Assembly (NCBI GenBank): GCA_046881945.1
Contig: JBKSMT010000074.1
Coordinates: 1-28,571 of the forward strand
Source of the DNA: Clostridia bacterium
GTDB taxonomy: Bacteria; Bacillota; Clostridia; Christensenellales; UBA1242
Direction of reading: 5' to 3'
Length of the DNA: 28,571 bases
Below the pieces are notes generated by a model. It did not search any database and had not been told where the DNA came from. It saw only the letters and a list, made by a program, of their open reading frames with translations. This document shows positions 1,133 to 27,551 of the stretch, piece by piece. A program made the translations under genes and the position numbers. Position 1 is the first letter of the stretch; each line of letters opens with the position of its first letter.

Positions 1133-3622
1133 TTACTCGCTTACTTCAGTATTTTCAACTTCCACTACTTCCTCGTCCTCATCTTCCTGACGTGCAACTA
1201 TTGAAATACCCACAATCTTACATCCTGAGGTATTCATAAGTCTTACACCTAATGCTGTACGACCAACCTCGTTAATTTGTTCAGCATGAGTACGAATAAC
1301 AATTCCATTTGAAGTAATTGCAAGTATATCTTGCCCCTCTTCAATAGGACTGATTGCAACAATATCTCCCGTCTTATCGTTAAATCGACCAGCCTTAGTA
1401 CCTTTACCTCTACGTGACTGCAATCTATAATCTTCAACTTTAGTACGTTTAGCATAACCAAGTTCAGTAACAGTCAAGATATCCTTGCTAGGTTCAAGCA
1501 CTATCATATCAATAATCTTTTCGCCCGCATCAATCTTCATACCCTTAACACCGCGTGAACTACGCCCTAGGATACGAACATCTTTTTCGCTAAATCTTAC
1601 ACATTTACCATTATTAGAAGCAATTAATAGTTCGTCATTTTCATTAACAGCCTTAACACTTACCAATTGGTCTTCTTCCATTAATTTAATTGCGATTTTG
1701 CCATTTTTACGAACTAAATCAAATTCACTCATCTTAGTCTTTTTGATATATCCCTGCTCTGTTGCCATAAATAATGATGCCTTATCTTGTGCGTCTGCAA
1801 CGATTGCAGTAATCTTTTCATCACCTTGCAACATCATTAGGTTGACAATTGCTCTACCCTTAGATGTCTTTGTTGCTTCAGGAATATTGTAAGCTTTCAT
1901 ACGATACACTTTACCAATATTAGTAAAGAACAATAAATCATCATGACTATTACAACTTATCATATTAACAACTACATCTGTATCTTTAGCTTTATGTCCA
2001 ACAACACCCTTTCCGCCACGATTTTGGCTCTTATATTCATTTGCAGGCATACGTTTAATATATCCTTCATCAGTTAAAGATATAACTACTTCGTGCTTAG
2101 CAATCAAATCACCAATATCAATATCATCATAATCAAGGCTTACTTCACTCTTACGAGGCTTAGCATATTTATCCTTAATTTGCAATATTTCCTCACGAAT
2201 AATACCTGCTATACGCGCTTCAGATGCCAAGATATCACTCAGTTCCTTAATAGTTGCACAAAGTTCTGTTAATTCGGCATTAAGTTTTTCAACTTCCAAA
2301 CCTGTTAGTCTTGACAATTTCATTTCAAGAATAGCATTGCCTTGCTTTTCGCTTAATTCGAACTTAGTTTGCAATTTTTCAATCGCATCTGCTTTGTCTT
2401 TAGATTTTTTGATAATTGCAATTACTTCATCAATGTTTCTAACTGCAATTACAAGACCTTCAATTATGTGCTCACGTTCCTTAGCCTTTTCAAGATCATA
2501 AGATGTACGACGAGTAATAACTTCCTTTTGGAAATCTAAATATTCTTCTAATATTTGCTTTAAATTTAATAATTGAGGCTTATTATGTGATAAACACAAC
2601 AAAATTATACCATTAGAAACTTGAAGTTGTGACATCTTGTATAATTGGTTTAACACAATTTGAGCATTAGCATCTTTCTTAATTTCAACCACAATACGCA
2701 AGCCGTCTTTATCACTTTCATCGCGAATATCACTAATACCTTCAATACGCTTATCTTTTACAAGGTCGGCAATTTGCATAATAAGTTTAGCCTTGTTTAC
2801 TTGATAAGGAATTTCGGTAACCACTATACGATAACGTTTGCCATCACCATAAGTTTCGATTTCAGCCTTTGAACGAATAATATATCCACCACGGCCAGTA
2901 CGATACGCTTCCTTAATTGCACCCAAGCCTAATACTTGACCACCTGTAGGAAAATCTGGTGCAGGGATTATTTGCATAAGTTCATCAATAGTAATTTCAG
3001 GGTTATCAATAATCGCAACCACACCATCAATAACTTCACCTAAATTGTGTGGAGGTATATTAGTTGCCATACCTACCGCAATACCGTCACTACCATTTAC
3101 TAATAGGTTAGGGAAACGACTAGGTATAACAACTGGTTGCATACGAGTATTATCAAAGTTTGGATAAAAATCAACAGTATCCTTATCAATATCACGAAGT
3201 AATTCGTTCGAAATCTTACTTAAACGCGCCTCAGTATAACGATATGCTGCGGCCTTATCTCCGTCCACCGAACCAAAGTTACCGTGACCATCAACCAACA
3301 ATTCGTTAATTGAAAAGTTTTGAGCCAAACGCACTAATGCATCATACACCGAACTATCGCCATGAGGGTGATAACGTCCTAATACATCACCGACGATTTT
3401 AGCACATTTTCTAAAAGGTTTGTCACTCCACAACCCTTCCTCACTCATGGCATACAAAATACGACGATGTACAGGCTTTAAACCGTCACGCACATCAGGG
3501 ATAGCACGTGACACGTTAACCGCCATAGCGTAATCCATAAATGACTCTTTCATTTCGTGTTCAAGATTACGCTCTAAATATCTAGTATTATCAATTTTTT
3601 CAAATATTTCACTTTTTTTCAT
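1133..3622 (-). CDS. gyrA: DNA gyrase subunit A
   Basis: [20 protein letters not shown], catalytic AAAYRYTE; C-terminal pinwheel repeats with GyrA-box-like SQNRGGKG. Confidence 0.9.
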
Positions 3623-3633
3623 AACTTACTTTC

Positions 3634-5589
3634 CTATATATCAAGATTTTTAACTTTATCAGCATTTTCATTGATAAAATCACGTCTTAGTTCTGGACGT
3701 TCGCCCATTAGCATATCAAATATTTCATTTGCCTCAATTGCATCATCAATTTTAACTTGAAGCAGTGTACGCGTTTGAGGATCCATAGTGGTTTCCCAAA
3801 GTTGATCTGGGTCCATTTCGCCTAGACCTTTGTAACGTTGAATTTCTGCCCCCTTGCTTCCATTAAGTTCCAAATCTCTATTTAATTCGTCATCACTATA
3901 ACAATATGTCGACTTTTTACCACGTTGAACCTTGTATAGAGGTGGTTGAGCAATATAAATGTGTCCACCCTCTACTAATGGACGCATAAAGCGGAAGAAG
4001 AATGTTAATAATAATATTCTAATATGCGCACCGTCCACGTCCGCATCGGTCATACATACTATTTTATCATATCTAAGTTTGCTCAAATCACAAGTTTGAC
4101 CAATACCACAACCAAATGCTGTAATCATTGCTTGGATTTCGGCATTTTCAAGCGCTTTGGCTTCACGAACCTTTTCAACGTTTAATATCTTACCGCGTAG
4201 TGGCAAAATTGCTTGGAAACGACGGTCGCGACCTTGCTTAGCGCTTCCGCCTGCCGAGTCCCCCTCGACTATGAATATTTCACACACGCTAGGGTCTTTT
4301 TCGCTACAATCAGCAAGTTTGCCAGGTAGCGCTGTATTTTCAAGCACTGACTTACGTCTTGTCGCTTCCCTAGCATTACGTGCTGCCTCACGTGCCTTTT
4401 GGCTAAGCAAACATTTATTAATCAATTCCTTGGCTTGACGTGGGTGTTCTTCCAAATATATTTCAAGCGCCTCACTTACCGCCTTAGTGGTGTATGTTCT
4501 AATTTCGTCATTACCCAACTTGGTTTTTGTTTGACCTTCAAATTGAGGTTCCTCAACCTTAACACTAACAACAGCTACAAGACCTTCGCGAGTGTCCTCA
4601 CCGCTTAACTTTTGAGTGTCCTTTACAAGTTTGTTAGCAATAGCATAATCATTAACAGTTTTAGCAACGGCAGTCTTAAATCCTTCAAAGTGCTTGCCAC
4701 CCTCCTCAGTACGAATATTGTTAGCGTAGGTGTGGATATTTTCGCTATAACTATCAATGTATTGGAAACTTGCCTCAATTTCACATTGTGCTGGCACCAT
4801 TTCACCATTTTCGTTTTTACGCTTGTATGAATAAATCTTGTCCACGTAAATAGGTGCATCAAACACACGTTCCTTAGTCGCAGTTAATTCTTGCACAAAT
4901 TCGTTAATACCGCCTTCAAACACGTAGTTATCAACCTGCTCTTGACCTTCACGCATATCTTCAATACGAATCTTCAAACCTTTGTTTAGGAACGCAAGTT
5001 CACGAAGACGGACTTTAAGTGTATCGTAGTTAAATATGGTTGTATCAAAGATTTGGTCATCTGGCATAAATGTTACACTTGTACCAGTTTTTTCAATCTT
5101 GCCAACCACTTCAAGACGTCCAGTAGGTCTACCGCGATGATATTCTTGATGATAGTGTTCGCCCTTTTGGAAGATATCAAGTAATAGTGTACTAGACAAT
5201 GCATTAACAACTGACAAACCAACACCATGCAATCCACCAGATATCTTATATCCGCCACCGCCAAACTTACCACCAGCGTGCAATTTGGTTAGTACCAGTT
5301 CTGCCGCACTAACACCTTCCTTAGGGTGAATACCTGTTGGGATTCCACGACCATTATCAATTACTTGCACTGAACCATCTTTAAGGATTGTAACACTAAT
5401 CTCGGTACAGTATCCAGCCAATGCCTCGTCAATACTGTTATCCACAATTTCGGTTACCAAATGATGAAGTCCACGTTCATCAGTAGAACCAATATACATA
5501 CCAGGACGCTTACGTACTGGTTCAAGCCCTTCCAATACTTGAATGTTACTTTCATCATAACTAGTAACTTTACTTAATTCTTCTGCCAT
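3634..5589 (-). CDS. gyrB: DNA gyrase subunit B
   Basis: GHKL motifs EIVDNSIDE, DNGRGIP, GGLHGVG; TOPRIM EGDSAGG, PLRGKILNV, MTDADVDG; RYKGLGEM. Confidence 0.92.
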   Translation of the reverse strand: MAEELSKVTSYDESNIQVLEGLEPVRKRPGMYIGSTDERGLHHLVTEIVDNSIDEALAGYCTEISVTILKDGSVQVIDNGRGIPTGIHPKEGVSAAELVLTKLHAGGKFGGGGYKISGGLHGVGLSVVNALSSTLLLDIFQKGEHYHQEYHRGRPTGRLEVVGKIEKTGTSVTFMPDDQIFDTTIFNYDTLKVRLRELAFLNKGLKIRIEDMREGQEQVDNYVFEGGINEFVQELTATKERVFDAPIYVDKIYSYKRKNENGEMVPAQCEIEASFQYIDSYSENIHTYANNIRTEEGGKHFEGFKTAVAKTVNDYAIANKLVKDTQKLSGEDTREGLVAVVSVKVEEPQFEGQTKTKLGNDEIRTYTTKAVSEALEIYLEEHPRQAKELINKCLLSQKAREAARNAREATRRKSVLENTALPGKLADCSEKDPSVCEIFIVEGDSAGGSAKQGRDRRFQAILPLRGKILNVEKVREAKALENAEIQAMITAFGCGIGQTCDLSKLRYDKIVCMTDADVDGAHIRILLLTFFFRFMRPLVEGGHIYIAQPPLYKVQRGKKSTYCYSDDELNRDLELNGSKGAEIQRYKGLGEMDPDQLWETTMDPQTRTLLQVKIDDAIEANEIFDMLMGERPELRRDFINENADKVKNLDI

Positions 5590-5695
5590 AATTTACTCCT
5601 AAAAATATCAAGATAAACATTTCAAATTTAATCTTATCTTATATTATTCCCTAATCAATTAAAACTTAAAACAATTTATCTATAGTATATAATAT

Positions 5696-5704
5696 ATTAT
5701 AGCA
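5696..5704 (-). promoter_or_regulatory. Extended -10 promoter (TG-C-TATAAT) upstream of gyrB
   Basis: Minus strand TGCTATAAT in AT-rich intergenic DNA; -35 weak. Confidence 0.55.
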
Positions 5705-5761
5705 TATTTATTAATATAAAGAAAGTATTTTACGCCAAAAAGTTTTCAAATTATCAACAAA

Positions 5762-5793
5762 AAATCCACAAATCTTTTACAATTTGTGGATAA
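5762..5793 (-). promoter_or_regulatory. DnaA-box dyad A / terminator hairpin
   Basis: Minus strand TTATCCACA-N14-TGTGGATTT followed by T-run, 9 nt after the stop of 5803..6531; extra TTATCAACA at 5751-5759. Confidence 0.75.
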
Positions 5794-5802
5794 CTTATTT
5801 CA

Positions 5803-6531
5803 CTATTGCATATCACCATGCATAGGCGCAGATTTATAATTCAAGAATCTATCTCCTATTCCCTTTTGGCGTTGTTCAAGTTCAATCATCTTTTTATTAC
5901 TAACATACATTTTGCAACCCAACTCATCAACAATTTGCTTTAATTGCGATTTGGTATAACTTATTAGTTTTAACATTTCCTCAATTTCATCATTTGTTTG
6001 AACTGATTTAAGTTGTTTCAAAATTTTTTGCAATTTCAACAAATAATAATATGTATCCAGTACATCCTTTGCAGTAAGTTTGTTTTCAAATATATTATTA
6101 TTTAATTTTTTTATTAATTCTACTTTTACACTCTCCAAATCAATCCTTGACAACTCATTAGGAAAGCTCTTTGCTTTATCATAAACAATTGATAATGTAT
6201 ATTGTCTTATAATAAATTCCATTATATCGTGATCAAAGTTCATTAGATGCTGATATATTATTCCGTTCAAATCATCAATTTCTTCCTTTAATTTCTCAGC
6301 GCCATCTTCATTCAACTGCAATACCCCACAATGCTTATACCAAATTGGTGGAACTTTATAATTTTCAAACCATGTGTGACGTGACAATTTAATTGCACGA
6401 TTATAAGTTTCATATAATTTTGATAACTTATAATACAATTCAGGCTTGTCAGCTCTATCTTCCCAATGTTCAATAAAGCCTATTACATTGTGCCACTCAG
6501 CATCTTTAATTTTTACACTAATTTCTTCCAT
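5803..6531 (-). CDS. Hypothetical protein (242 aa, largely helical)
   Basis: Long ORF with AAGGAG RBS, consensus promoter and downstream terminator; no family recognised. Confidence 0.8.
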   Translation of the reverse strand: MEEISVKIKDAEWHNVIGFIEHWEDRADKPELYYKLSKLYETYNRAIKLSRHTWFENYKVPPIWYKHCGVLQLNEDGAEKLKEEIDDLNGIIYQHLMNFDHDIMEFIIRQYTLSIVYDKAKSFPNELSRIDLESVKVELIKKLNNNIFENKLTAKDVLDTYYYLLKLQKILKQLKSVQTNDEIEEMLKLISYTKSQLKQIVDELGCKMYVSNKKMIELEQRQKGIGDRFLNYKSAPMHGDMQ

Positions 6532-6557
6532 ACAAACTCTCCTTAAAACTTAATTTC

Positions 6558-6585
6558 ATTATATCACATATCCACATTTTGTCAA
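6558..6585 (-). promoter_or_regulatory. sigmaA promoter TTGACA-16-(TG)TATAAT with DnaA box in spacer
   Basis: -35 at 6580-6585, -10 at 6558-6563, TGTGGATAT (1 mismatch) at 6568-6576. Confidence 0.8.
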
Positions 6586-6599
6586 TATCTAAATAAAAA

Positions 6600-6631
6600 A
6601 AATCCACAAAATATTGCTACTTTGTGGATAA
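6600..6631 (-). promoter_or_regulatory. DnaA-box dyad B / terminator hairpin
   Basis: Minus strand TTATCCACA-N14-TGTGGATTT followed by T-run, 19 nt after the stop of 6651..7061. Confidence 0.75.
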
Positions 6632-6650
6632 CTATAATCACATTTCAAAT

Positions 6651-7061
6651 TTATAGTACTTGTCTGCGATTGTCAATAAATTCCATTATTTGTGTATCTA
6701 TCTCTTCAAGGCATTCAACATGCTCTTTTGCAGTTATTAAACCCGATACAAATTTAACTTGTAAGTCCTTAATTCTATCTAAAATACCTATAATAATCTC
6801 ATCATTAAAAGTCGAAGGTCTTGTATCTCTAGCAAATTTAATATGATACATAATTTGCGCTAACACTTCATCACTCTTAATCATACAGCCAAGACATTCT
6901 ATTTCATCATCAATATTATCCTTAGTTATTCCGCCTACACGGTCGGCAATAATGCGCTTACTTAATGATTTTTTACCACCAAATTGACTTTTATTTTGAC
7001 TACGATTGAATTGTTCACGCCTTAATTGTGCTTTACCCTCAAACGAATTTCTAAATTTCAT
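6651..7061 (-). CDS. Hypothetical protein (136 aa; basic N-terminus, acidic helical C-terminus)
   Basis: ORF with own promoter, AAGGA RBS and terminator; no family recognised. Confidence 0.75.
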   Translation of the reverse strand: MKFRNSFEGKAQLRREQFNRSQNKSQFGGKKSLSKRIIADRVGGITKDNIDDEIECLGCMIKSDEVLAQIMYHIKFARDTRPSTFNDEIIIGILDRIKDLQVKFVSGLITAKEHVECLEEIDTQIMEFIDNRRQVL

Positions 7062-7083
7062 ATTTTTATCCTTTTATAATTGT

Positions 7084-7112
7084 ATTATATTGAACATTTA
7101 TCCACTTGTAAA
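7084..7112 (-). promoter_or_regulatory. sigmaA promoter TTTACA-17-TATAAT with DnaA box in spacer
   Basis: -35 at 7107-7112, -10 at 7084-7089, AGTGGATAA (1 mismatch) at 7098-7106. Confidence 0.75.
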
Positions 7113-7116
7113 TATG

Positions 7117-7156
7117 AAATATCCACAAATTGTAATCAACTTGTGGATAAATTATT
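7117..7156. repeat. 40-bp direct repeat copy 1, containing DnaA-box dyad C
   Basis: AAATATCCACAAATTGTAATCAACTTGTGGATAAATTATT identical to 8513-8552. Confidence 0.95.
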
Positions 7157-7892
7157 AATTGAATTTAAATGGTTCAACATTATTTAATTCTTCGAAATAT
7201 TTTTGAATTAAAACATCTTCATTTTCGCCTTGCTGAATACGTTTAACCATTTCTGCAATTTTCTCATTAACTTTAGTTAGTCGATTAAATTTATCTTCGC
7301 CAAAATCTTTTTTAGTTCTATCTAAGTGCTCTTTCCAAATTTTGTCAATTTCTTGCTTTGTTTTAGCAGGTTTATTTAAATCTAAAACATAATTATAGTC
7401 ACCATCGTCATCATATCCAACATAGTCAAATCCATTTTTTACCATTGCTTTATATGAGCCATAATTTTCAATATCCGCACCGCCATTTATTTTGTTCACA
7501 CCACGAGATTTTGCAATCTCAATAATCTTATTTACCATTTCAACGCCATAACCTTTAAACCAGTGTTTTAATAAAACATTGAATCCAAAATCCCAAAAAT
7601 CTGCAGTTTTTGAATGATAATATTTGCCAAATCTACAAGTACCAACCACTTCGCCAGTTGACTTTAAAAACGCTACTCTGAAATACATGCAATCATCATA
7701 ATCTTCAAGATTTTTAAATGTTGGCTCTGCCTGTTTTGATAATCCCTCTACACTTCCATATGCATCACGCATTGCGTTGTATCTTGCATTAAACGGATTT
7801 GACCAACTATCGCCAACAATTTGTTTTTCTTCGTCAGTTAACATACTAAATGGCTTTAAAATTAATCTTTCGCTTTCAAAAATTTCTGTCAT
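7155..7892 (-). CDS. GNAT family N-acetyltransferase (RimJ/RimL-like)
   Basis: FESERLILKP N-terminus; acetyl-CoA motif HWFKGYGVEMV; N..S..AMVKNGF. Confidence 0.85.
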   Translation of the reverse strand: MTEIFESERLILKPFSMLTDEEKQIVGDSWSNPFNARYNAMRDAYGSVEGLSKQAEPTFKNLEDYDDCMYFRVAFLKSTGEVVGTCRFGKYYHSKTADFWDFGFNVLLKHWFKGYGVEMVNKIIEIAKSRGVNKINGGADIENYGSYKAMVKNGFDYVGYDDDGDYNYVLDLNKPAKTKQEIDKIWKEHLDRTKKDFGEDKFNRLTKVNEKIAEMVKRIQQGENEDVLIQKYFEELNNVEPFKFN

Positions 7893-7904
7893 ATCGCTCT
7901 CCTT

Positions 7905-8498
7905 TTATTTATCCAAATTATGACTTTGTATCCACGAACGAAAATGTTTTTTATTAGGTGTGGTATAGTTATAATCTAGCAATGTTTTTGTATTATCTAT
8001 TAAATTTATTGCTTCATTTAACACCTCTTGCTTATTTTTGCCACAAACATCTATAACAACTTCATTTGGCAATAATGGTCTGTTCTTTATAACTTCATTA
8101 GACTTACTATCGCCTTCTGGTATATAAAGTCCTTGACCAGTTTTATGCCTTTCTTCCATTTGATTTTTAATTTGTTGATAGTTTGATGAAATTAGTCTTA
8201 AAATTATATAATCATAACCCTTAAATAGTTTAGGAAAACTTCTTACCCTTAAATCATCGAAATCTAATGCAATAATATTTCTATAGCCCTTTTTATAAAA
8301 CCATTTCATTTGCATCAATGTATTTTTAAAACACAAATCTTCCTCATAAATTCCAACATCTTTAACCCCTTCCGGAATTACAAATTCAGGTACCATACTT
8401 TGTTCAATATATACGCCATTATAATGTTGATATAACTCTTTTGCTAACGTTGTTTTACCAACCGCACTAGGTCCTATAATAAATATAAAATCTTTCAT
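7905..8498 (-). CDS. P-loop NTPase / nucleotide-kinase-like protein
   Basis: N-terminal Walker A IIGPSAVGKTT; kinase-like length. Confidence 0.8.
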   Translation of the reverse strand: MKDFIFIIGPSAVGKTTLAKELYQHYNGVYIEQSMVPEFVIPEGVKDVGIYEEDLCFKNTLMQMKWFYKKGYRNIIALDFDDLRVRSFPKLFKGYDYIILRLISSNYQQIKNQMEERHKTGQGLYIPEGDSKSNEVIKNRPLLPNEVVIDVCGKNKQEVLNEAINLIDNTKTLLDYNYTTPNKKHFRSWIQSHNLDK

Positions 8499-8512
8499 AC
8501 TTTCTCCTTATT

Positions 8513-8552
8513 AAATATCCACAAATTGTAATCAACTTGTGGATAAATTATT
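8513..8552. repeat. 40-bp direct repeat copy 2, containing DnaA-box dyad D
   Basis: Identical to 7117-7156; box begins 12 nt after the metG stop. Confidence 0.95.
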
Positions 8553-8558
8553 TTTGTA

Positions 8559-10565
8559 TTAACAACATTCGCTTCCGTCGGCGATAATGTCTTTTTCAGG
8601 GCTAAGTAGTGAAATGTTTCCAATTTCATCTTCAGCGCAAACTATCATACCTTCACTCAAATATCCCTTCATCTCTCTTGGTGGAAGATTAGTCACCACT
8701 ACTACTTTTTTGCCAACCATTTGCTCTGGAGTGTACGCCTTTGCAATACCACTTAGTATTGAAAGCGTTTTAGTTCCAATCCTTACAGTTGAGTGAAGTA
8801 GTTTAGACTTTGGCACTGCTTCACATGCTAGCACAACACCTATTTTCATTTGCACTTTTGCAAAATCATCAATAGTAATAGGTTCAACTTCTTTAAACTC
8901 AATCACTGGCGCATTTTCAGCCTTTTGTTTAGCCACAATCTCATCAATAGTTGGCTTAATGTCATCAAATTTAATACGATTAAATAGTATTTGAGGAGCA
9001 TTTGTAATATTAAATTCTTGTGTTAATCCAAAGTTTGCAATATCATTAAATTTACGCGCATTTACACCCAATTCATTAAAGATTTTATTTGCAGTTTCTG
9101 GCATAAATGGAGAAAGTAAATTTGCGCCAATATTAATAGTTTCAAGAAGATTAAATAGTACTGTTGCAAGACGTTCATGCTTACTTTCGTCTTTATTTAA
9201 ATTCCAAGGTTCTGTTTCATCAATATACTTATTTGCACGTCTAAACAAGATCCACAATTCTTCAAGCGCATCAGCAATTTTGTATTCATTAATCTTATTA
9301 AACACTTTTTCTTTTGCACCTATAACAATCGCTTTTAAATCTTCGTCCATTATGTCGGTGATATTATAATTTTTAACCTTTCCGTCAAAGTATTGATTAC
9401 TCATGCTTAAAGTGCGTCTAACTAGGTTGCCCATTACATTGCTTAAATCTGCATTGTTCTTTTCAGTCAATAATTCCCATGTAATTGTTCCGTCTGACAC
9501 AAAAGGCATTTCACGTAACACATAATAACGTACACTATCAACGCCAAAAATTGACGCTAAATCATCAAAATAAAGTACATTACCCTTTGATTTACTCATC
9601 TTTTCGCCACCTTGAAGTAGCCATGGATGACCTAATACTTGCTTAGGCAATTCTTCGCCCAACGCCATTAGGAAAATAGGCCAATAAATAGTGTGAAAAC
9701 GTACAATATCCTTACCCACCACATGCACATCTGCCGGCCATAATTTATTGTATAATTCGCTTGGATTTTCAATATCATAACCGATGCCAGTAATATAGTT
9801 ATTTAATGCATCTAGCCACACATACACAACGTGTTTGTTGTCAAATTCAACAGGAATACCCCATTTAAACGTACTACGACTTACACATAAATCTTGAAGT
9901 TTAGTCTTGATTGTTCCATTTTCAATAGCGGTCAACAATTCCTCATCACTTTTGCCCACAAACTCGTCAGCAAGAATAAAGTTATTTAACATTTCATTTT
10001 TACGGCTAGTAGGTGTCATAAATTCAGGGTGAGTAATAATATGCTTTAATAATCTGTTTGCATAGTTGCTCATTTTAAAGAAATATGCTTCCTCTTGACT
10101 AGGTTTCACTTCACGGCCACAATCTGGGCACTTACCATCAACTAATTGACTTTCAGTCCAAAAACTTTCACATGGAGTACAATAAAGCCCTTCATAATGA
10201 CCTTTGTAAATATCTCCTTGCTCATAGAACTTTTTAAATATCTTTTGAACGCATTTTTCGTGATCCGCGTCTGTGGTACGAATAAATTTATCGTATGAAA
10301 TATTCATAAAGTCCCAAAGGTCCTTTATATCTCCCGCAATATTGTCAACAAAAGCCTTAGGTGTCAACCCTTTTTCTTTAGCTTTCATTTCAATTTTTTC
10401 GCCATGTTCATCTGTTCCTGTCATAAAGAAAACATCATATCCCTGCATTCGCTTAGCACGCGCTATAACGTCCGACAAAATAATCTCGTAAGTATTTCCA
10501 ATATGAGGCTTGCCCGAAGTATAGGCAATAGCAGTTGTAATATAAAATTTTTCTTTATTTTCCAT
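8559..10565 (-). CDS. metG: Methionine--tRNA ligase with C-terminal tRNA-binding domain
   Basis: YTSGKPHIGN (HIGH), GTDEHG, CTPC/CPDC Zn knuckle, KMSKS, C-terminal Trbp111-like domain. Confidence 0.95.
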   Translation of the reverse strand: MENKEKFYITTAIAYTSGKPHIGNTYEIILSDVIARAKRMQGYDVFFMTGTDEHGEKIEMKAKEKGLTPKAFVDNIAGDIKDLWDFMNISYDKFIRTTDADHEKCVQKIFKKFYEQGDIYKGHYEGLYCTPCESFWTESQLVDGKCPDCGREVKPSQEEAYFFKMSNYANRLLKHIITHPEFMTPTSRKNEMLNNFILADEFVGKSDEELLTAIENGTIKTKLQDLCVSRSTFKWGIPVEFDNKHVVYVWLDALNNYITGIGYDIENPSELYNKLWPADVHVVGKDIVRFHTIYWPIFLMALGEELPKQVLGHPWLLQGGEKMSKSKGNVLYFDDLASIFGVDSVRYYVLREMPFVSDGTITWELLTEKNNADLSNVMGNLVRRTLSMSNQYFDGKVKNYNITDIMDEDLKAIVIGAKEKVFNKINEYKIADALEELWILFRRANKYIDETEPWNLNKDESKHERLATVLFNLLETINIGANLLSPFMPETANKIFNELGVNARKFNDIANFGLTQEFNITNAPQILFNRIKFDDIKPTIDEIVAKQKAENAPVIEFKEVEPITIDDFAKVQMKIGVVLACEAVPKSKLLHSTVRIGTKTLSILSGIAKAYTPEQMVGKKVVVVTNLPPREMKGYLSEGMIVCAEDEIGNISLLSPEKDIIADGSECC

Positions 10566-10577
10566 AAATTTTTCTCC

Positions 10578-11351
10578 TTATAACTTTTTATCAAGTTCAA
10601 CAGCACATTCAAATGCTAGTGATATAATTTTCTTTTTACTATCGTTGAGTTCGTTAACCGCAAGACTACGAACATCATATTCTTCCGCACCAAGATTATC
10701 GGCCGCATAAAAGAATTGTCCAAAATTAACACCCCTAAATTTAGCCACGGAAGCCATTGCTGAACATTCCATATCCACAGTAATAGCACCTTGTTTTTTA
10801 CGCATTTCAACCTTATCTTTAGTTTCACGATATAATGCGTCAGTTGTCCAAGTTTTACCTTTACGATAATTAATGTTTTTTAATTTCATAAAATCTTCAA
10901 TAATATTAACACACTTTTTATTAATTTCAACCTCGTCACTAGCAGGCAAATAATGGTAACTTGCACCTTCATCACGTAACGCGCTTGTTGGTATTATTAT
11001 TGAATAATCCTCAATCTCTGCATCCAAACAACCACAACAACCAACCAAAAGCAAGCTCTTAACTCCCATTACTATCATTTCCTCAAAATTGCCTACTGCA
11101 GCCGCAGCCCCAACAGGCGTTTGATAAAAAGCGATATCCGTGCCACCAACATTAATTTTATACACAGGATAATCTTTAGTCATGCTTTTGATAATCCCTA
11201 TTTGTTTAGCATTGTATTTTTGCTCAATTTCTTTTACTAACTCTTTATCAAAAATAGACATTGCTATTTTAGGAAATCCTTCAACTTTGCTTTGAAATAC
11301 ATCAGGATTTAAAACCGCTAATTTATTGGTATCAAATTGTTCTAATAACAT
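10578..11351 (-). CDS. Nucleoside phosphorylase (PNP/UDP family)
   Basis: GCCGCL, ALRDEGASYHY, TWTTDALYRET, VDMECSA; start moved to ATG 11351 behind AAAGGAG. Confidence 0.85.
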   Translation of the reverse strand: MLLEQFDTNKLAVLNPDVFQSKVEGFPKIAMSIFDKELVKEIEQKYNAKQIGIIKSMTKDYPVYKINVGGTDIAFYQTPVGAAAAVGNFEEMIVMGVKSLLLVGCCGCLDAEIEDYSIIIPTSALRDEGASYHYLPASDEVEINKKCVNIIEDFMKLKNINYRKGKTWTTDALYRETKDKVEMRKKQGAITVDMECSAMASVAKFRGVNFGQFFYAADNLGAEEYDVRSLAVNELNDSKKKIISLAFECAVELDKKL

Positions 11352-11374
11352 ATACACTCCTTTATATTTCAAAC

Positions 11375-11818
11375 TTAATATTCTTGAACCAGATTAATTG
11401 GACCATCAAGCACTGTGTAAATTTCCATGTGTTCAGCAAAGCGTCCCATTTTAACGGTCAAACCATATTCGTTAATAAGTTCAGTTTGAAGTGCCTGATA
11501 TAATTCAATTGCTTTATCTTTTGGTGCACTTAATGTAAAGTCAGGTCGTGCTCCACCTCCGCCTTTGCGGTCACACAATGTGAAATTCGATACCAATAAC
11601 ACTTCGCCACCAACTTGGGCAATATTGTTGTTTAGTTTTTCATTTTCATCCTTAAAAAGTCGCACCGTTGCAATACGTCTAGCCACACGCTTAACATTAT
11701 CCATTGTATCATCACGCGTAACGCCTACAAACACATTATATCCATGTCCTATTTCGCTTACAATCTCGTTATCCACTTCCAATCTTGACTTATGAACCCT
11801 TTGAATTACTATTCTCAT
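11375..11818 (-). CDS. dtd: D-aminoacyl-tRNA deacylase
   Basis: MRIVIQRV, R.F.DE..KLN, SNFTL (SQFTL variant), DGP motif. Confidence 0.88.
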   Translation of the reverse strand: MRIVIQRVHKSRLEVDNEIVSEIGHGYNVFVGVTRDDTMDNVKRVARRIATVRLFKDENEKLNNNIAQVGGEVLLVSNFTLCDRKGGGGARPDFTLSAPKDKAIELYQALQTELINEYGLTVKMGRFAEHMEIYTVLDGPINLVQEY

Positions 11819-11828
11819 AATTTATCCT

Positions 11829-12077
11829 TTATTTGTTTAAACTTTCAATTTCTTGCAACTCAAATCTATCCTCTTGCTTAACATTAGGATATTTAACCCT
11901 ATCCACACGACTAGCAAACATATCATAATGACGCACATATCTTTTGCCATCTCCGTATAATGCACGGTATAGCACCATTTTATCTTTAGTTTCTGAATCT
12001 AATACGATATCTTCAACTAAATAGTAGTCGCCTTTAAAATGCCTATAAATTCTACCAACCTTAATTTCTTTTGTCAT
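11829..12077 (-). CDS. DUF1653 domain protein
   Basis: YRHFKG.YY, VLYRALYG, YVRHYDMF, Q..RF pattern. Confidence 0.85.
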   Translation of the reverse strand: MTKEIKVGRIYRHFKGDYYLVEDIVLDSETKDKMVLYRALYGDGKRYVRHYDMFASRVDRVKYPNVKQEDRFELQEIESLNK

Positions 12078-12098
12078 ACTATTCTCCTTTAATATGTG

Positions 12099-12614
12099 TT
12101 ATTGTTTTAAGATAAATCTTAATTTCGCATTTTTGTCATTTGGTAAAGCATAATCAATGCCAACACGTGTGGCAGTTGTGTACTTATACTTATCACCATC
12201 GTCAATAATACAAATTTTAGAGTTGTTTACTATGCTTTCCCCATTTAACGATTTGTCAATATTTAATAGTTTAGTCGCTTTTGCTGGACCGTTTGCTCCT
12301 ACCACACCACGAATTAGCACCGCTTCTGGCACACCCTCATCACAACTTACAATATTCAGCAAATAATGTAATCCATAGCACAAATAAATATAAATTGTTC
12401 CGCCATCTTGCCACATAGGATCAACACGCTTAGTTCGCCTTCCCTTATAGGTATGACACGCACTATCGTTAACGCCTAAATACGCCTCAGTTTCGCAAAT
12501 TTGCGCCTTAACTTCCGCGCCATTAATATTGGTAACAATCCACTTACCAATCAAACTTTTAGCAAGTGTAATTGTATCCATTTTAAAAAACTGTAAATCA
12601 TCAATTGTTTTCAT
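12099..12614 (-). CDS. DNA-3-methyladenine glycosylase (MPG/AAG family)
   Basis: LAKSLIGK, ICETEAY, YIYLCYGLHYLLNIV, AVLIRG, GPAK, RVGI; start likely ATG 12614. Confidence 0.9.
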   Translation of the reverse strand: MKTIDDLQFFKMDTITLAKSLIGKWIVTNINGAEVKAQICETEAYLGVNDSACHTYKGRRTKRVDPMWQDGGTIYIYLCYGLHYLLNIVSCDEGVPEAVLIRGVVGANGPAKATKLLNIDKSLNGESIVNNSKICIIDDGDKYKYTTATRVGIDYALPNDKNAKLRFILKQ

Positions 12615-12619
12615 ACTAT

Positions 12620-13018
12620 TTATAGAAATTTTATCAACCTTTCTTTCAATTCTTGCTTGTCGCCATACCACTCTATAAACTTTATAAACTCATCAAGGTC
12701 GCACCACTTATAATCAATACTTTCTTCATTTAATTTAATTTTGTCATTATCTGCAAATGATACAAATGCATGCTCAACACAATGTTCACCCAATGACTCA
12801 TACTCAAAAGTCCAATTTAAGTTTATAATCTTATTTAAAGTTAAACCCGTTTCTTCCAAAACCTCACGTTTAACTGTATCTTCTAGCGAACTATCTTCCT
12901 TTTCACAACCACCAGTTACCACATACCAAAATGATTTGTGATATTGCGGGTCTTGGTCACTACCTAATAATAGCAATAACTTGTTATCTCTAACAATAAA
13001 TGTTAATATCTTTTCCAT
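12620..13018 (-). CDS. NUDIX hydrolase
   Basis: Nudix box GGCEKEDSSLEDTVKREVLEETGL; start likely ATG 13018. Confidence 0.88.
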   Translation of the reverse strand: MEKILTFIVRDNKLLLLLGSDQDPQYHKSFWYVVTGGCEKEDSSLEDTVKREVLEETGLTLNKIINLNWTFEYESLGEHCVEHAFVSFADNDKIKLNEESIDYKWCDLDEFIKFIEWYGDKQELKERLIKFL

Positions 13019-13037
13019 ACAGTTCCCGTTTACTAAA

Positions 13038-13457
13038 TTATCCACGTGCAATTTTGTTAACAAGTTGCATATCTACTTTGCCAGCATAATTTGCTTTAAA
13101 GTGTTTCATTACGCTTGGAATAGATTTATCTTCCAAAGAATTAATAACCGCCTTGATTTCGTCTTCGCTCATCATTTGAGGAAGATATTTTTCAAGCATT
13201 GACTTTTGAGTTTTAATTTCTTGCTCTTGTTCAGTTTTGCCTACTTTTGCATAGTTTTCGGCTTCCTCATTTAGCTCTTTAATAGTCTTTTGAAGTATTG
13301 CAATCATATCAGCGTCAGTCATTTCAGCACCAGTTTTACGCTTTTCAATACTTAATGCTAAGTGCTTACTAATTGCAACACCTAAAATTGCACGTGCAAC
13401 CATATTTTTGTCCTTAATTGCTTGCACATTATCCTTTTTAATTTCATCAATAATCAT
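13038..13457 (-). CDS. GatB/YqeY domain protein
   Basis: IK.D...AIK.K, E...E...LEKYLPQ.MSEDEI, AGKVD pattern. Confidence 0.88.
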   Translation of the reverse strand: MIIDEIKKDNVQAIKDKNMVARAILGVAISKHLALSIEKRKTGAEMTDADMIAILQKTIKELNEEAENYAKVGKTEQEQEIKTQKSMLEKYLPQMMSEDEIKAVINSLEDKSIPSVMKHFKANYAGKVDMQLVNKIARG

Positions 13458-13481: not shown

Positions 13482-14930
13482 TTAAAACGAACCATCAAAA
13501 TCGTCATTTGCCACTGGTATCAACTCAGTTGTGTCATTTGATACATTGTGCACTGGAGCTTCAGATAGGCGATTTGCCTTTGGTTCTTCAAACCTTGTAT
13601 ATTGGCCATACCATTTAAGCAGTATTGAACCAAGCGAACCATTACGGTGTTTTGCAATAATAAGTTTACAATTTTCGCCATCATCAGCGCTTGGCTCAGC
13701 ACTAACATCTTCGCTGTCAAGGTCTTGATTTGCTTCATTAACGCGGTCAATAAACATAACTATATCCGCGTCTTGCTCGATTGCGCCTGATTCACGCAAG
13801 TCGCTAAGTTGAGGTTTATGGTCAGTACGCTTTTCGATATCACGTGATAATTGCGATAGCACGATAATAGGACATTCAAGTTCACGTGCAGCAATCTTTA
13901 GGCTACGTGTTAAATCCGCCACTTCTTGTTGACGATTGCCACTATCTTTAGTTGTATCACTTTTCATAAGTTGAAGATAGTCAATCATAACCATATCCAA
14001 CCCCTTTTCAGCCTTTAATCTACGGCATTTAGATAAAATTTGTGTAGGAGTAGTAAGTGATGAATCATCTACATATAGTTGAGCATTACTTAATTCTTCC
14101 TTAGTTTGCATAACAGTTTCCCAAACTCGAGAATTAGTTGTACCACTAGTAGCATTGTCCATAGTAATATTACCAACACTACACATAGTTCTTTGTGCAA
14201 TTTGGCTAATAGGCATTTCAAGTGAGAAAATTGCAACAGTGGCACCGCCATAAAGGGCGGCATTACTACAAATATTAAGCGCAAGTGAAGTTTTACCAAT
14301 ACCCGGACGGGCAGCCAACAATATTAAATCGCCCTTATGGAAACCTTTGGTATAATTATCAAGCGTAGGAAATCCTGTTTTAATACCGCGAAATGCATTT
14401 TTGTCAATTGACAATTTTTCCATACGGTCAATAACTTGATTAACACCCTCGTTTATTTGCACAAGTTCACTAATATCCTTTTCCTTAGACAAATCAAAAA
14501 TTTGTTTTTCTAAATGCTGTAAAGCGGTTTTTGAATTAGTATTGGCAAAACAATAATTGATACCATCTTGACATAGTTCAATAAGTCTTCGCATTGTTGC
14601 ATCATTTTGAACAATTTCCATATAATTTTTGAAATTTGATGCACTAGGTACTGCATTCGTCAAGTCAGCAACATACTCAATACCCCCAACATCCTCAAGT
14701 TCACCTTTACTATCAAGATTTTTAGCAACAGTTACATAGTCAACCCCTTTGTTGCCAATATAACTTTCGTACATCGCTTTAAAAATCTTTTGATGACCTG
14801 TTGAATAAAAGTCATTAGGTTGCATTTTGGCAAAACACTCACTTTGAGCGTCTTGGCTTAAAAACAAACTACCTAACAAACTTTGTTCAACCTCCAAATT
14901 ATGCGGTAAAATTCTTGGTGCTTTTTCCAT
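13482..14930 (-). CDS. dnaB: Replicative DNA helicase (DnaB; DnaC in Bacillus nomenclature)
   Basis: PHNLEVEQ, AARPGIGKT, FSLEM, IDYLQL, LSQLSR, SDLRESGAIEQDAD, IAKHRNG. Confidence 0.95.
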   Translation of the reverse strand: MEKAPRILPHNLEVEQSLLGSLFLSQDAQSECFAKMQPNDFYSTGHQKIFKAMYESYIGNKGVDYVTVAKNLDSKGELEDVGGIEYVADLTNAVPSASNFKNYMEIVQNDATMRRLIELCQDGINYCFANTNSKTALQHLEKQIFDLSKEKDISELVQINEGVNQVIDRMEKLSIDKNAFRGIKTGFPTLDNYTKGFHKGDLILLAARPGIGKTSLALNICSNAALYGGATVAIFSLEMPISQIAQRTMCSVGNITMDNATSGTTNSRVWETVMQTKEELSNAQLYVDDSSLTTPTQILSKCRRLKAEKGLDMVMIDYLQLMKSDTTKDSGNRQQEVADLTRSLKIAARELECPIIVLSQLSRDIEKRTDHKPQLSDLRESGAIEQDADIVMFIDRVNEANQDLDSEDVSAEPSADDGENCKLIIAKHRNGSLGSILLKWYGQYTRFEEPKANRLSEAPVHNVSNDTTELIPVANDDFDGSF

Positions 14931-24486: not shown

Positions 24487-25497
24487 TTACAACTCCAAAT
24501 TTGCTTTTGGTGCAAGACTTCCATCGGCAAAAGCTTTTCCTAGTAGGACATCAAAGTATGCACTACTTCCTATCATTGCTGCATTATCGGTACAATATTT
24601 TAAGTCTGGAAGATAACACTTTATCCCTTTTTGTGCACACTTTGTGGATAACTCTTGTCGTAAAAGTTTATTTGCTGACACACCACCGGCAACTACAACC
24701 TTATCAAGCCCACTTTCAAGTGTAGCACGTATAGTTTTATCCACAAGTTCATCAACTGCACACTTTTGAAAACTTGCACAAATATCGTTAACAGGAATAG
24801 TTAAATTCTTTTGTTCAAGGTTATGAATATAGTTAATAACTGCCGTCTTTTTACCACTAAAACTAAAATTGTAACCCAAACTATCATTTGGTTTTACAAA
24901 CACAATATTATCCTTTCCCTGTTCTGCTGCCTTTGACACTTTTGGTCCACCAGGATAACCCAAACCCATCACACGTGCAACTTTGTCAAAACTTTCACCT
25001 ACTGCGTCATCAAGAGTGTTACCTATTACAGTATGTTGGTTATATTCGTCTACCCTAATAATTGCTGTATGTCCACCGCTAACCAGCAAACACATAAAAG
25101 GTGGCTTTAAATCAGGATAAGTAATATAGTTAGACGCAATATGACCATTAATATGATTAACTGCAATTAGTGGTTTGCCAGTTGCAAACGACAATGCCTT
25201 AGCATAACTAATACCAACCAACAAGCAACCAACAAGTCCTGCACCATAGGTTACCGCAATAGCGTCAATATCGTCAAGAGTCTTATCGGCTTCCTTAAGT
25301 GCTTGATTAACCACGTTGTCAATAGCAGTTATGTGGTTACGTGACGCAACCTCAGGCACAACGCCACCAAATAATGTATGAATATCAATTTGACTAGACA
25401 CCACGTTGGAAAGAACTGTGCGACCATCAACTACCACCGCACAACTTGTTTCATCACAACTACTTTCAATTGCTAAAATTGTATAATTATTTTTCAT
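24487..25497 (-). CDS. tsaD: tRNA N6-adenosine threonylcarbamoyltransferase TsaD
   Basis: [60 protein letters not shown]; start ATG 25497. Confidence 0.96.
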
Positions 25498-27359: not shown

Positions 27360-27397
27360 TTATCCACACCAACATCGTATTTAGTGGATAATTTTTT
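27360..27397 (+). promoter_or_regulatory. DnaA-box dyad E / terminator hairpin
   Basis: TTATCCACA-N14-AGTGGATAA followed by T6, 2 nt after the XRE stop. Confidence 0.75.
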
Positions 27398-27419: not shown

Positions 27420-27551
27420 ATGAAAAAAGTAAAGAAAATCAAAACAAAATCATTTGGTAATCCTAGTAAATTTGATATTAATGGCTCGTATACGGGAACA
27501 TCTAGTTTGGTTTCGGATTTAAACCCCGTACAAGATGCAGATGATTTATAA
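27420..27551 (+). CDS. Small protein (43 aa) ending GSYTG...PVQDADDL, not in ORF track
   Basis: Hand translation MKKVKKIKTKSFGNPSKFDINGSYTGTSSLVSDLNPVQDADDL; sigmaG-like CATACTA upstream; motif recalled from small clostridial hypothetical proteins. Confidence 0.6.
   Translation: MKKVKKIKTKSFGNPSKFDINGSYTGTSSLVSDLNPVQDADDL

What the first reader, a model, noticed from the sequence alone, without database searches (positions are those of the whole stretch)
5751..8552. Family of fixed-spacing inverted DnaA-box dyads punctuating an accessory gene array between metG and gyrB
Seen: dyads at 5762-5793, 6600-6631, 7119-7150 and 8515-8546, plus a fifth at 27360-27391. In the sense of the upstream gene each reads perfect TTATCCACA, exactly 14 nt of variable sequence, then a degenerate reverse box. 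Each starts 2-19 nt after a stop codon; A, B and E end in a T-run like an intrinsic terminator. The spacer of A begins AATTGTAA on the minus strand and that of C/D begins AATTGTAA on the plus strand, so the family occurs in both orientations, yet the perfect box is always gene-proximal. Established: TTATCCACA is the DnaA consensus; DnaA is titrated by datA (E. coli) and DnaA-box clusters (B. subtilis) and can block transcription. Inference: a constant spacer length with free sequence fits a protein complex bridging two boxes better than a plain hairpin. These may be dual terminator/DnaA-binding modules that gate read-through into gyrase and two unknown genes, or dispersed DnaA titration sites.
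Basis: partly seen in the sequence, partly recalled or inferred. Interest (0 to 1): 0.82.

Follow-up and report, generated by a model that had tools for sequence, protein, structure and literature searches.

The report
DnaA-box terminator hairpins bounding gene cassettes
The repeated dyads are real: they are transcription-terminator hairpins whose unchanging lower stem is a perfect DnaA box, and they close each unit of a variable accessory-gene array between metG and gyrB in one clade of the uncultured gut genus Candidatus Onthoplasma.

Summary
Observation confirmed: none of 100 shuffles of the window gave a match. The reading needs correction.

- **Hairpins.** Dyads A-D (5762-5793, 6600-6631, 7119-7150, 8515-8546) are sense-strand RNA hairpins. 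Each has an 11-13 bp stem, a 4-6 nt loop and a T-rich tail, 4-19 nt after a stop codon.
- **Spacer.** The 14-nt "spacer" is not free. It is upper stem plus loop, and it covaries across 32 copies from 12 genomes. The distal box looks degenerate because the U-tract starts there.
- **Array.** In 13 arrays from close relatives, metG-gyrB holds 0 to at least 3 accessory units. Nearly all end in such a hairpin, all in one orientation. In four arrays a unit is bracketed by identical or nearly identical copies.
- **DnaA box.** The outer stem, TTATCCACAA/TTGTGGAT, and two mostly unpaired T's hardly ever vary. Other terminators in the genus are diverse.
- **Elsewhere.** Symmetric DnaA-box dyads with 13-15 nt spacing follow dnaN and precede a dnaB/dnaI-like operon across the genus. 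E belongs to this class.

Best reading: intrinsic terminators built on a DnaA box, probably also bound by DnaA, forming an origin-proximal box cluster that grows as cassettes are added. DnaA binding and the insertion mechanism are inferred, not shown. This is a new variant of known kinds, of moderate interest.

The parts
8515..8546 (-). Dyad D. Hairpin 12 nt after the metG stop: 13-bp stem, 4-nt loop, no clean U-tract, Shine-Dalgarno sequence AAGGAG straight after it. Probably a leaky terminator ahead of the promoterless P-loop/GNAT unit. Part of the 40-nt repeat 8513-8552.
   Evidence: (-16.2 kcal/mol, z -5.5)
7119..7150 (-). Dyad C. Identical copy of D, 4 nt after the GNAT stop, followed by the orf136 promoter. 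Part of the 40-nt repeat 7117-7156.
   Evidence: (-16.2 kcal/mol)
6600..6631 (-). Dyad B (gamma type). 12-bp stem, GCAA tetraloop, 8 T's. Terminator of orf136.
   Evidence: (-13.9 kcal/mol, z -6.7)
5762..5793 (-). Dyad A (alpha type). 11-bp stem, 6-nt loop, T-run. Terminator of orf242 and the last insulator before the gyrB promoter.
   Evidence: -16.1 kcal/mol, z -5.3
27360..27391 (+). Dyad E. Symmetric class (TTATCCACA-N14-AGTGGATAA), 2 nt after an XRE-type HTH gene, weak hairpin plus T-run. Orthologous dyads exist in G045 and G048.
8559..10565 (-). metG, the conserved left anchor of the array.
7905..8498 (-). Cassette gene: 197-aa P-loop protein with weak AAA_18/kinase-like matches. No promoter of its own.
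7155..7892 (-). Cassette gene: 245-aa GNAT acetyltransferase. An 84% homologue sits directly after metG in another array (L185).
6651..7061 (-). Cassette gene orf136. Clade-restricted family with no Pfam match, present in 11 of the 12 arrays compared, always followed by the gamma dyad.
5803..6531 (-). Cassette gene orf242. No Pfam match. A 59% homologue occupies the same position in G048.
7084..7112 (-). orf136 promoter (TTTACA-17-TATAAT), directly after dyad C. The box-like AGTGGATAA in its spacer is not conserved in orthologues.
6558..6585 (-). orf242 promoter (TTGACA-16-TGnTATAAT, 12/12 match), directly after dyad B. The box-like TGTGGATAT in its spacer is not conserved in G048.
5696..5704 (-). 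Extended -10 (TGCTATAAT) of gyrB's own promoter, in a leader conserved in all 8 close species whichever dyad type precedes it.
   Evidence: read directly
3634..5589 (-). gyrB, the conserved right anchor of the array.

Best explanation
**What the dyads are.** A-D are Rho-independent terminators, acting as insulators. On the sense (window minus) strand each reads 5'-TTATCCACAA, then 4-5 variable stem bases, a 4-6 nt loop, the complement, TTGTGGAT and a T-rich tail. The nascent RNA folds into an 11-13 bp hairpin. A, B and C end transcription of the unit upstream. D lacks a clean U-tract and probably lets some metG transcripts read into the promoterless P-loop/GNAT pair.

**The array.** The units are accessory genes that have piled up between metG and gyrB in one clade of Ca. 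Onthoplasma. Most have their own promoter. The array appears to grow by insertion at the resident hairpin, or by its duplication.

**The DnaA box.** The lower 8 bp of the stem plus the two T's 5' of it form a perfect DnaA box. It stays fixed while the upper stem covaries, so something reads the sequence. The most likely reader is DnaA on duplex DNA. That would make the array an origin-proximal DnaA-box cluster built into terminators, of the same design as the genus-wide DnaA-box terminator behind dnaN.

**Shown:** the hairpins, the covariation, the invariance of the box, the modular array, and the genus-wide loci.
**Inferred:** termination in vivo (about 0.9), DnaA occupancy (about 0.5), and insertion or duplication at the hairpin (about 0.35).
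For: **Hairpin and terminator.**
- Sense-strand folds are -13.9 to -16.2 kcal/mol (z -5.3 to -6.7) and stronger than the antisense folds (-9.6 to -13.1).
- The terminator scan picks A, B and C; the region has 6 terminator-like sites against 0.8 expected.
- Across 32 copies from 12 genomes, 92% of cells pair. The covariation score is 0.218 against 0.120 in shuffles (0 of 500 reach it), and sliding the partner columns collapses the pairing.
- The inner pairs show AU/GU/GC/UA exchanges. Gamma loops are GCAA, GAGA, GUGA, GCGA and GUAA.

**Box invariance.**
- The outer 8 pairs show 2 changes in 32 copies, both keeping a wobble pair. T7 and T8 are invariant although T8 is unpaired in 21 of 32 copies and T7 lies outside the modelled stem, while the next base upstream varies freely.
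- Of about 504 crude terminators in this genome, only A, B and one box palindrome on contig C28 (G000:C28) use this stem.
- More distant species have ordinary, diverse metG terminators.

**Array.** There are 13 architectures with 0 to at least 3 units and 9 gene families in the 12 arrays compared. The homology downstream of the last dyad is shared whatever its type.

**Link to DnaA.**
- Symmetric 13-15 nt dyads lie right after dnaN in 15 of 18 sampled loci, and upstream of a DnaB_2/DnaI-like operon.
- The same kind of dyad follows dnaN in other Clostridia, and follows gyrB in another MAG.
- dnaA lies 32-36 kb from the array in two relatives.
- Origin-proximal DnaA-box clusters are established in B. 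subtilis (PMC3245932).
Against: - There is no binding or transcript-end data.
- E. coli ChIP-seq shows DnaA needs tandem boxes 2-3 bp apart; only 13 of the 32 consensus single boxes lay in a bound region (PMC11317965). Each array dyad has one perfect box and a 7/9 inverted box 14 nt away.
- More distant species of the genus have no boxes upstream of gyrB, so any DnaA role here is specific to this clade.
- One cassette family (orf226/orf203) ends in an unrelated hairpin, so the box hairpin is not obligatory.
- Box-like motifs inside the cassette promoters are not conserved.
- All copies are homologous, so part of the constant 14 nt could simply be inherited.
Confidence: 0.6

Rival explanations
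1. Plain intrinsic terminators only. The box sequence is a historical accident of one ancestral hairpin, perhaps a copy of the dnaN terminator. It is kept uniform by common descent and by gene conversion between neighbouring copies, and DnaA plays no part.
For: - The hairpin, U-tract and covariation are all present.
- Identical neighbouring copies in 4 arrays show that duplication or homogenisation happens.
- There are no boxes upstream of gyrB in distant species.
- E. coli DnaA seldom occupies lone boxes (PMC11317965).
Against: - The alpha, beta and gamma classes differ at most of the 14 inner positions, yet share 18 outer positions in 12 genomes. Conversion tracts would not spare only the inner part.
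- Two invariant T's complete the 9-mer, though one is mostly unpaired and the other lies outside the stem.
- The same 9-mer dyad recurs at dnaN, dnaB/dnaI and gyrB loci across deep divergence.
- Other terminators in the genus drift freely.
Confidence: 0.25
2. The hairpins are recombination joints. New cassettes enter at the resident beta hairpin, which is duplicated in the process. This works like attC sites of integrons or like a long target-site duplication, but without a linked integrase. Possible routes are template switching at the hairpin or short-homology recombination on the invariant arms. This does not exclude the terminator role.
For: - Four different inserts are bracketed by identical or nearly identical beta dyads whose inner sequence is lineage-specific: the P-loop+GNAT245 pair in G000 (40/40 nt), GNAT170 in L178 (37 nt), orf190 in L185 (1 difference) and GNAT171 in L176 (2 differences).
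- Cassette borders abut the dyads within 4-12 nt.
- The same gene family sits at different array positions.
- G020 has a cassette between dnaN and its dyad, with box remnants on the dnaN side.
- Six MAG contigs break just after metG.
Against: - No recombinase lies next to the array. The two tyrosine recombinases are on other contigs, and no Y1 or serine enzymes were found, though the genome is only 80% complete.
- No attC signature is present.
- Accessory genes also vary upstream of metG without any dyads.
- Gene conversion between 40-nt direct repeats could produce the identical pairs.
- No cassette was seen at a second locus with its dyad.
Confidence: 0.3
3. One reading: on duplex DNA a DnaA complex bridges two inverted boxes held exactly 14 bp apart, and this geometry, not a hairpin, is what is selected.
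For: - Spacing is 14 nt in 35 of 36 array copies across different stem and loop layouts, and 13-15 nt in the symmetric dyads, whose spacers do not pair.
- Outside this genus, 14 nt is the outer spacing of a common three-box module (box, 2-3 nt, box, 3 nt, inverted box), seen in 39 of 72 hits.
Against: - In the array the spacer is paired and covaries, with sense-strand G-U wobbles.
- The distal box is never perfect.
- No DnaA complex bridging inverted boxes 14 bp apart came up in the papers read. Those describe pairs 2-3 bp apart and head-to-head contacts between neighbouring boxes of the DARS core (PMC11317965, PMC5742627).
Confidence: 0.08
4. The hairpins act as single-stranded DNA. On the lagging-strand template they fold, present a duplex DnaA box, and recruit DnaA and the helicase loaders for priming or restart, like the A-site of the ABC primosome.
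For: - The stem carries a complete DnaA box.
- The sense strand is the G-rich strand (plus-strand GC skew -0.21 to -0.27), and transcription points away from dnaA in relatives. So the sense strand should be the lagging-strand template.
- The A-site is a precedent: a hairpin with one DnaA box loads DnaB (PMC6127211).
Against: - G-U wobbles (weak G-T pairs in DNA) and GNRA loops point to selection on RNA, not DNA.
- The position straight after stop codons and the U-tracts fit termination.
- There is no evidence of such priming sites on Firmicute chromosomes.
Confidence: 0.07

Closest known systems
Rho-independent (intrinsic) terminators
   Same: Stem-loop plus U-tract a few bases after a stop codon. 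The stem covaries, tetraloops are stable, and the hairpin is stronger on the sense strand.
   Different: All copies share one invariant lower-stem sequence, which is a protein-binding consensus. The base of the stem is A-U rich. One copy (D) lacks a proper U-tract.
Origin-proximal DnaA-box clusters of Bacillus subtilis and datA of E. coli (PMC3245932, PMC5742627)
   Same: Dense consensus DnaA boxes in intergenic DNA a few tens of kb from dnaA. The B. subtilis clusters sit beside different genes in different species.
   Different: The boxes here are embedded in terminator stems as inverted pairs 14 nt apart rather than as tandem arrays. The number of boxes varies with cassette number. Binding is untested.
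DnaA/dnaA-box block to transcription downstream of asnC in E. coli (Schaefer and Messer, recalled from memory, not checked here) and the proposed DnaA-dependent his attenuator (PMC10989985)
   Same: A DnaA box placed where transcripts end. In the his case, box-like sequences lie inside an attenuator stem-loop.
   Different: Those cases involve a single locus. Here a family of full intrinsic terminators carries the box. Nothing shows DnaA dependence.
ABC-primosome A-site (PMC6127211)
   Same: A hairpin whose stem contains a DnaA box.
   Different: The A-site acts as ssDNA on plasmid or phage templates. Here the wobble pairs, loops and U-tracts point to an RNA role.
Integron gene cassettes and attC sites
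   Same: An ordered array of small, often promoterless accessory genes (including acetyltransferases). Each is followed by an imperfect palindrome of conserved structure and variable core, all in one orientation.
   Different: There is no intI, attI or Pc. There is no R''-L''/L'-R' (GTTRRRY) signature. The palindrome is 32 nt, not 57-141 nt. Most units carry their own promoter. The array lies between two housekeeping genes.
Neisseria minimal mobile elements and DUS-pair terminators (recalled from memory)
   Same: Variable genes between conserved core genes. A specific 9-10-mer occurs as an inverted pair inside terminators.
   Different: The 9-mer is not dispersed through the genome (41 perfect copies in 922 kb). 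Nothing links it to DNA uptake.

Membership tests
Intrinsic terminator | Stable RNA stem-loop immediately downstream of a coding region | tested here: met
   11-13 bp stems, -13.9 to -16.2 kcal/mol, 4-19 nt after stop codons.
Intrinsic terminator | U-tract directly after the stem | tested here: met
   A has TTTTTTG, B has 8 T's, C has 7 T in the 10 nt after the stem. D is not picked by the terminator scan: its tail is TTTAATAAGG, so it is probably leaky.
Intrinsic terminator | Structure conserved through compensatory change | tested here: met
   3 pairs change on both sides (25 cells). No shuffle out of 500 reaches the observed score.
Intrinsic terminator | Transcript 3' ends at the site | not testable with these tools
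DnaA-box cluster / DnaA binding site | Consensus 9-mer TTATCCACA, enriched over chance | tested here: met
   In 5400-8600 there are 5 perfect boxes and 7 with one mismatch.
DnaA-box cluster / DnaA binding site | Location near the replication origin | tested here: met
   dnaA is 32-36 kb away in G051 and G022. In G000 itself dnaA is not assembled.
DnaA-box cluster / DnaA binding site | Closely spaced (2-3 bp) box pairs, as needed for binding in vivo in E. coli (PMC11317965) | tested here: not met
   Array boxes are inverted and 14 nt apart. Only the separate cluster at G000:C28:5067-5098 has 2-3 nt spacing.
DnaA-box cluster / DnaA binding site | DnaA occupancy | not testable with these tools
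   Needs ChIP, DAP-seq or EMSA.
Integron (attC cassette array) | Adjacent intI integrase with attI and Pc | tested here: not met
   The flanks are metG and gyrB. The two tyrosine recombinases are on contigs C72 and C164.
Integron (attC cassette array) | attC architecture: R''/L''-L'/R' with GTTRRRY, 57-141 bp | tested here: not met
   Read directly from alignment A2: a 32-nt palindrome with no GTTRRRY core.
REP / MITE-type dispersed palindromes | Many copies scattered through the genome | tested here: not met
   hairpin-type copies occur only in this locus. The related symmetric-type dyads lie at 2 further places in the 922-kb assembly (two on contig C55) and at E in the window.
ABC-primosome A-site-like ssDNA signal | Hairpin stem containing a DnaA box on the lagging-strand template | tested here: inconclusive
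   The box in the stem is met. The strand assignment is inferred from GC skew and from the position of dnaA. Activity is untestable here.

The most novel reading that the evidence does not exclude
The DnaA-box hairpins are the insertion and duplication sites of a gene-cassette system that has no integrase. Accessory genes are captured at a hairpin on the lagging-strand template beside the origin, each event copies the hairpin, and the hairpin then serves as both terminator and DnaA site. The cell's DnaA-box load near oriC would then change with every cassette gained or lost.
Probability: 0.15. Interest if true: 0.85.

Novelty: new variant of a known kind. Interest (0 to 1): 0.55.

Why it matters
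If DnaA does bind these stems, terminators and DnaA-box clusters are merged into one element. The same design is conserved behind dnaN across a genus and in other Clostridia. That would couple replication status to transcript ends, or to DnaA titration, in very small Firmicute genomes.

The array also gives a clean natural series of 0 to at least 3 cassettes with duplicated hairpins. It can be used to ask how accessory genes enter a fixed chromosomal hotspot without a dedicated recombinase.

If DnaA does not bind, the finding reduces to a locally duplicated terminator family. That would be ordinary.

Tried and rejected
- **Integron:** rejected. No intI and no attC signature.
- **REP/MITE or uptake-sequence repeat:** rejected. 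Not dispersed.
- **CRISPR-like array:** rejected. The units are 0.5-1.4 kb and hold genes with promoters.
- **Known RNA family:** no Rfam match at E <= 1.
- **DnaA-box operators inside the orf136 and orf242 promoters:** present in this genome, but not conserved in orthologous promoters of 5 relatives.
- **Conserved DnaA control of gyrB:** no boxes upstream of gyrB in 13 more distant species.
- **XRE-family HTH next to E as the dyad binder:** it does not fit the array copies or the dnaN copies.
- **Cassette protein function:**
  - orf136, orf242 and orf314 have no Pfam match; orf136 has no PADLOC match, and orf242 and orf314 have only weak ones.
  - Atlas hits are below the level at which they mean anything.
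- **Metagenome scan with the orf136 alignment:** no relatives found.


Full report
**Setting.**
- The window is contig C74 of a 922-kb assembly: 168 contigs, 80% complete, 31.8% GC.
- Records of close relatives are named Candidatus Onthoplasma, in Christensenellales, Clostridia.
- Genes in the region all run on the minus strand:
  - metG 8559-10565
  - a 197-aa P-loop protein 7905-8498
  - a 245-aa GNAT 7155-7892
  - orf136 6651-7061
  - orf242 5803-6531
  - gyrB 3634-5589
  - gyrA 1133-3622

- TTATCCACA-N14-TGTGGAT with up to one mismatch occurs at five places. None of 100 shuffles gave a match.
- Across the whole assembly, convergent box pairs peak at 14 nt: 8 pairs, of which 7 are real dyads. 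Five of these are in this window. Other spacings have 0-2 pairs.
- C and D are identical over 40 nt.

**What the four array dyads are.**
- On the sense strand each folds into an 11-13 bp hairpin with a 4-6 nt loop, at -13.9 to -16.2 kcal/mol (z -5.3 to -6.7). The antisense folds are weaker, because the sense strand uses G-U pairs.
- A simple terminator scan picks A, B and C. D has the hairpin but only a poor U-tract, and is followed at once by a ribosome-binding site. It is probably leaky, feeding the promoterless P-loop/GNAT pair.
- Near-consensus promoters follow C and B, for orf136 and orf242.
- gyrB has its own extended -10 in a leader conserved in all eight close species.

**Comparative data: the spacer is not free.**
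- I collected 32 copies from 12 genomes, and three more from a thirteenth array.
- With the structure of 13 pairs and a 4-nt loop, 92% of cells pair. The covariation score beats all 500 shuffles and every slid control.
- The four inner pairs exchange AU, GU, GC and UA. The gamma copies behind orf136 carry GCAA, GAGA, GUGA, GCGA or GUAA loops.
- So the 14 nt are upper stem plus loop, laid out as 5+4+5 or 4+6+4.
- The distal box looks degenerate because TGTGGAT runs straight into the T-tract.
- All copies have the same orientation relative to transcription.

**Something also reads the sequence.**
- The outer eight pairs show only two changes in 32 copies, and both keep a wobble pair.
- The two T's that complete the 9-mer are invariant, although T8 is unpaired in 21 of 32 copies and T7 lies outside the modelled stem. 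The base just upstream varies freely.
- The three hairpin classes differ at most inner positions but share the outer 18.
- Among about 504 crude terminators in this genome, only A, B and one box palindrome on contig C28 (G000:C28) use this stem.
- More distant species of the genus end metG with ordinary, unrelated hairpins.
- A hairpin requirement alone would allow the covariation seen in the inner stem. So the lower stem is constrained as a sequence, and that sequence is exactly the DnaA box.

**The box dyad is a design found across the genus.**
- In 64 species, perfect inverted boxes fall into two spacing classes, about 3 nt and 13-15 nt.
- The 13-15 nt class lies directly behind dnaN in 15 of 18 sampled loci, in the form (A)AG-TTATCCACA-N13-14-TGTGGATAA-CTTTTT. 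That is a long-stem terminator with both boxes perfect.
- It also lies upstream of a DnaB_2/DnaI-like operon. In this genome that copy is G000:C55:8973.
- It also lies upstream of the 486-aa/tsaD operon. That copy is dyad E, with orthologues in G045 and G048.
- Other Clostridia have the dnaN copy too. An unrelated MAG has a perfect hairpin-type copy right after gyrB.
- Outside the genus, 39 of 72 N14 pairs contain a third box in the middle. So 14 nt is the outer spacing of a common three-box module.

**The array itself.**
- Between metG and gyrB the close relatives (the eight closest species have metG at least 91% identical) carry 0 to at least 3 units. G045 has none. G022 and L177 have one. 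G000 has three. G048 has at least three.
- Nine gene families occur in the 12 arrays compared:
  - orf136, in 11 of those 12 arrays
  - a small GNAT, in 4
  - an 82-87 aa partner of orf136, in 3
  - orf242, orf314 and orf226/203, in 2 each
  - the P-loop protein, GNAT245 and a MarR-family regulator, once each
- L185 adds a further gene, orf190.
- Almost every unit ends in a box hairpin. G053 keeps a half-remnant, and the orf226/203 unit uses an unrelated terminator.
- Four different inserts are bracketed by identical or nearly identical beta hairpins whose inner sequence is lineage-specific: G000, L178, L185 and L176. This means either that the resident hairpin is duplicated at each insertion, or that gene conversion acts between neighbours.
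- No recombinase lies nearby.
- orf136 is 39-85% identical between genomes whose gyrB is 96-99% identical.
- Several MAG contigs break right after metG.

**Position.** dnaA lies 32-36 kb from the array in G051 and G022, and metG-gyrB is transcribed away from it. The window's plus-strand GC skew is -0.21 to -0.27 throughout, which fits transcription running with replication.

**Limits on the DnaA reading.**
- There are no binding or transcript data.
- E. coli DnaA prefers tandem boxes 2-3 bp apart; only 13 of the 32 consensus single boxes lay in a bound region (PMC11317965).
- More distant species have no boxes upstream of gyrB.
- The box-like motifs in the two cassette promoters are not conserved.
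- Precedents exist for each proposed role:
  - origin-proximal box clusters in B. subtilis (PMC3245932)
  - a hairpin with a DnaA box loading helicase (PMC6127211)
  - a proposed DnaA-dependent attenuator (PMC10989985)

**Verdict.** The dyads are intrinsic terminators built on a DnaA box, and they punctuate a modular accessory-gene array. DnaA binding is likely but unproven. The hairpin probably also marks where the array grows.

Noticed in passing
G000:C28:5067-5098 (L184): Three-box cluster TTATCCACA-cag-TTATCCACA-ttt-TGTGGATAA between an Amidase_3 gene and a DHH/DHHA1 gene. Similar clusters occur in most species of the genus, 13-19 kb from the dnaN dyad. Two direct boxes plus one inverted box recalls the DARS core of E. 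coli (PMC5742627).
   Followed up: partly
L020, L026, L029 and others; L076, L082, L101: A DnaA-box dyad (AG-TTATCCACA-N13-14-TGTGGATAA-CTTTTT) sits right after dnaN in 15 of 18 sampled Onthoplasma loci. It is also found in three other Clostridia MAGs.
   Followed up: partly
L111:5317-5348: In an unrelated Clostridia MAG a perfect 13-bp hairpin with a DnaA-box stem, a T-run and an extra box follows gyrB. After it come accessory genes, including a protein with a TraC/VirB4-like P-loop.
   Followed up: partly
window 10578-13457: The block between the replicative helicase gene (13482-14930, 482 aa; assigned by position, since the homologous gene in relatives L178 and L181 has DnaB/DnaB_C domains) and metG also differs between relatives. 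Genes that come and go include NUDIX, GNAT, SUKH/SMI1, DUF1653 and a purine DNA glycosylase. No dyads lie between them.
   Followed up: no
window 6651-7061: The orf136 family is confined to this clade (43 clusters, no Pfam match). It has a conserved basic N-terminal segment. It diverges to 39-85% identity between genomes whose gyrB is 96-99% identical.
   Followed up: partly
window 27420-27551: A small lysine-rich ORF starts about 30 nt after dyad E. It is conserved at the same place in G045 and G048.
   Followed up: partly
L037, L039, L043, L044, L048, L049: Six MAG contigs end within 0.05-2.6 kb after metG. This suggests the array is hard to assemble, because of repeated hairpins or strain differences.
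   Followed up: no
window 24643-24651 and 24737-24745: Two perfect DnaA boxes lie inside the 3' part of tsaD. B. subtilis has a DnaA-box cluster at gcp(tsaD)-ydiF (PMC3245932).
   Followed up: no
L033 (G051) and L181, upstream of orf226/orf203: This cassette carries two copies of a palindrome, TTGTTGACAAATCAACAAG, over its promoter. In G051 a MarR-family gene follows. It has its own terminator without a DnaA box.
   Followed up: no
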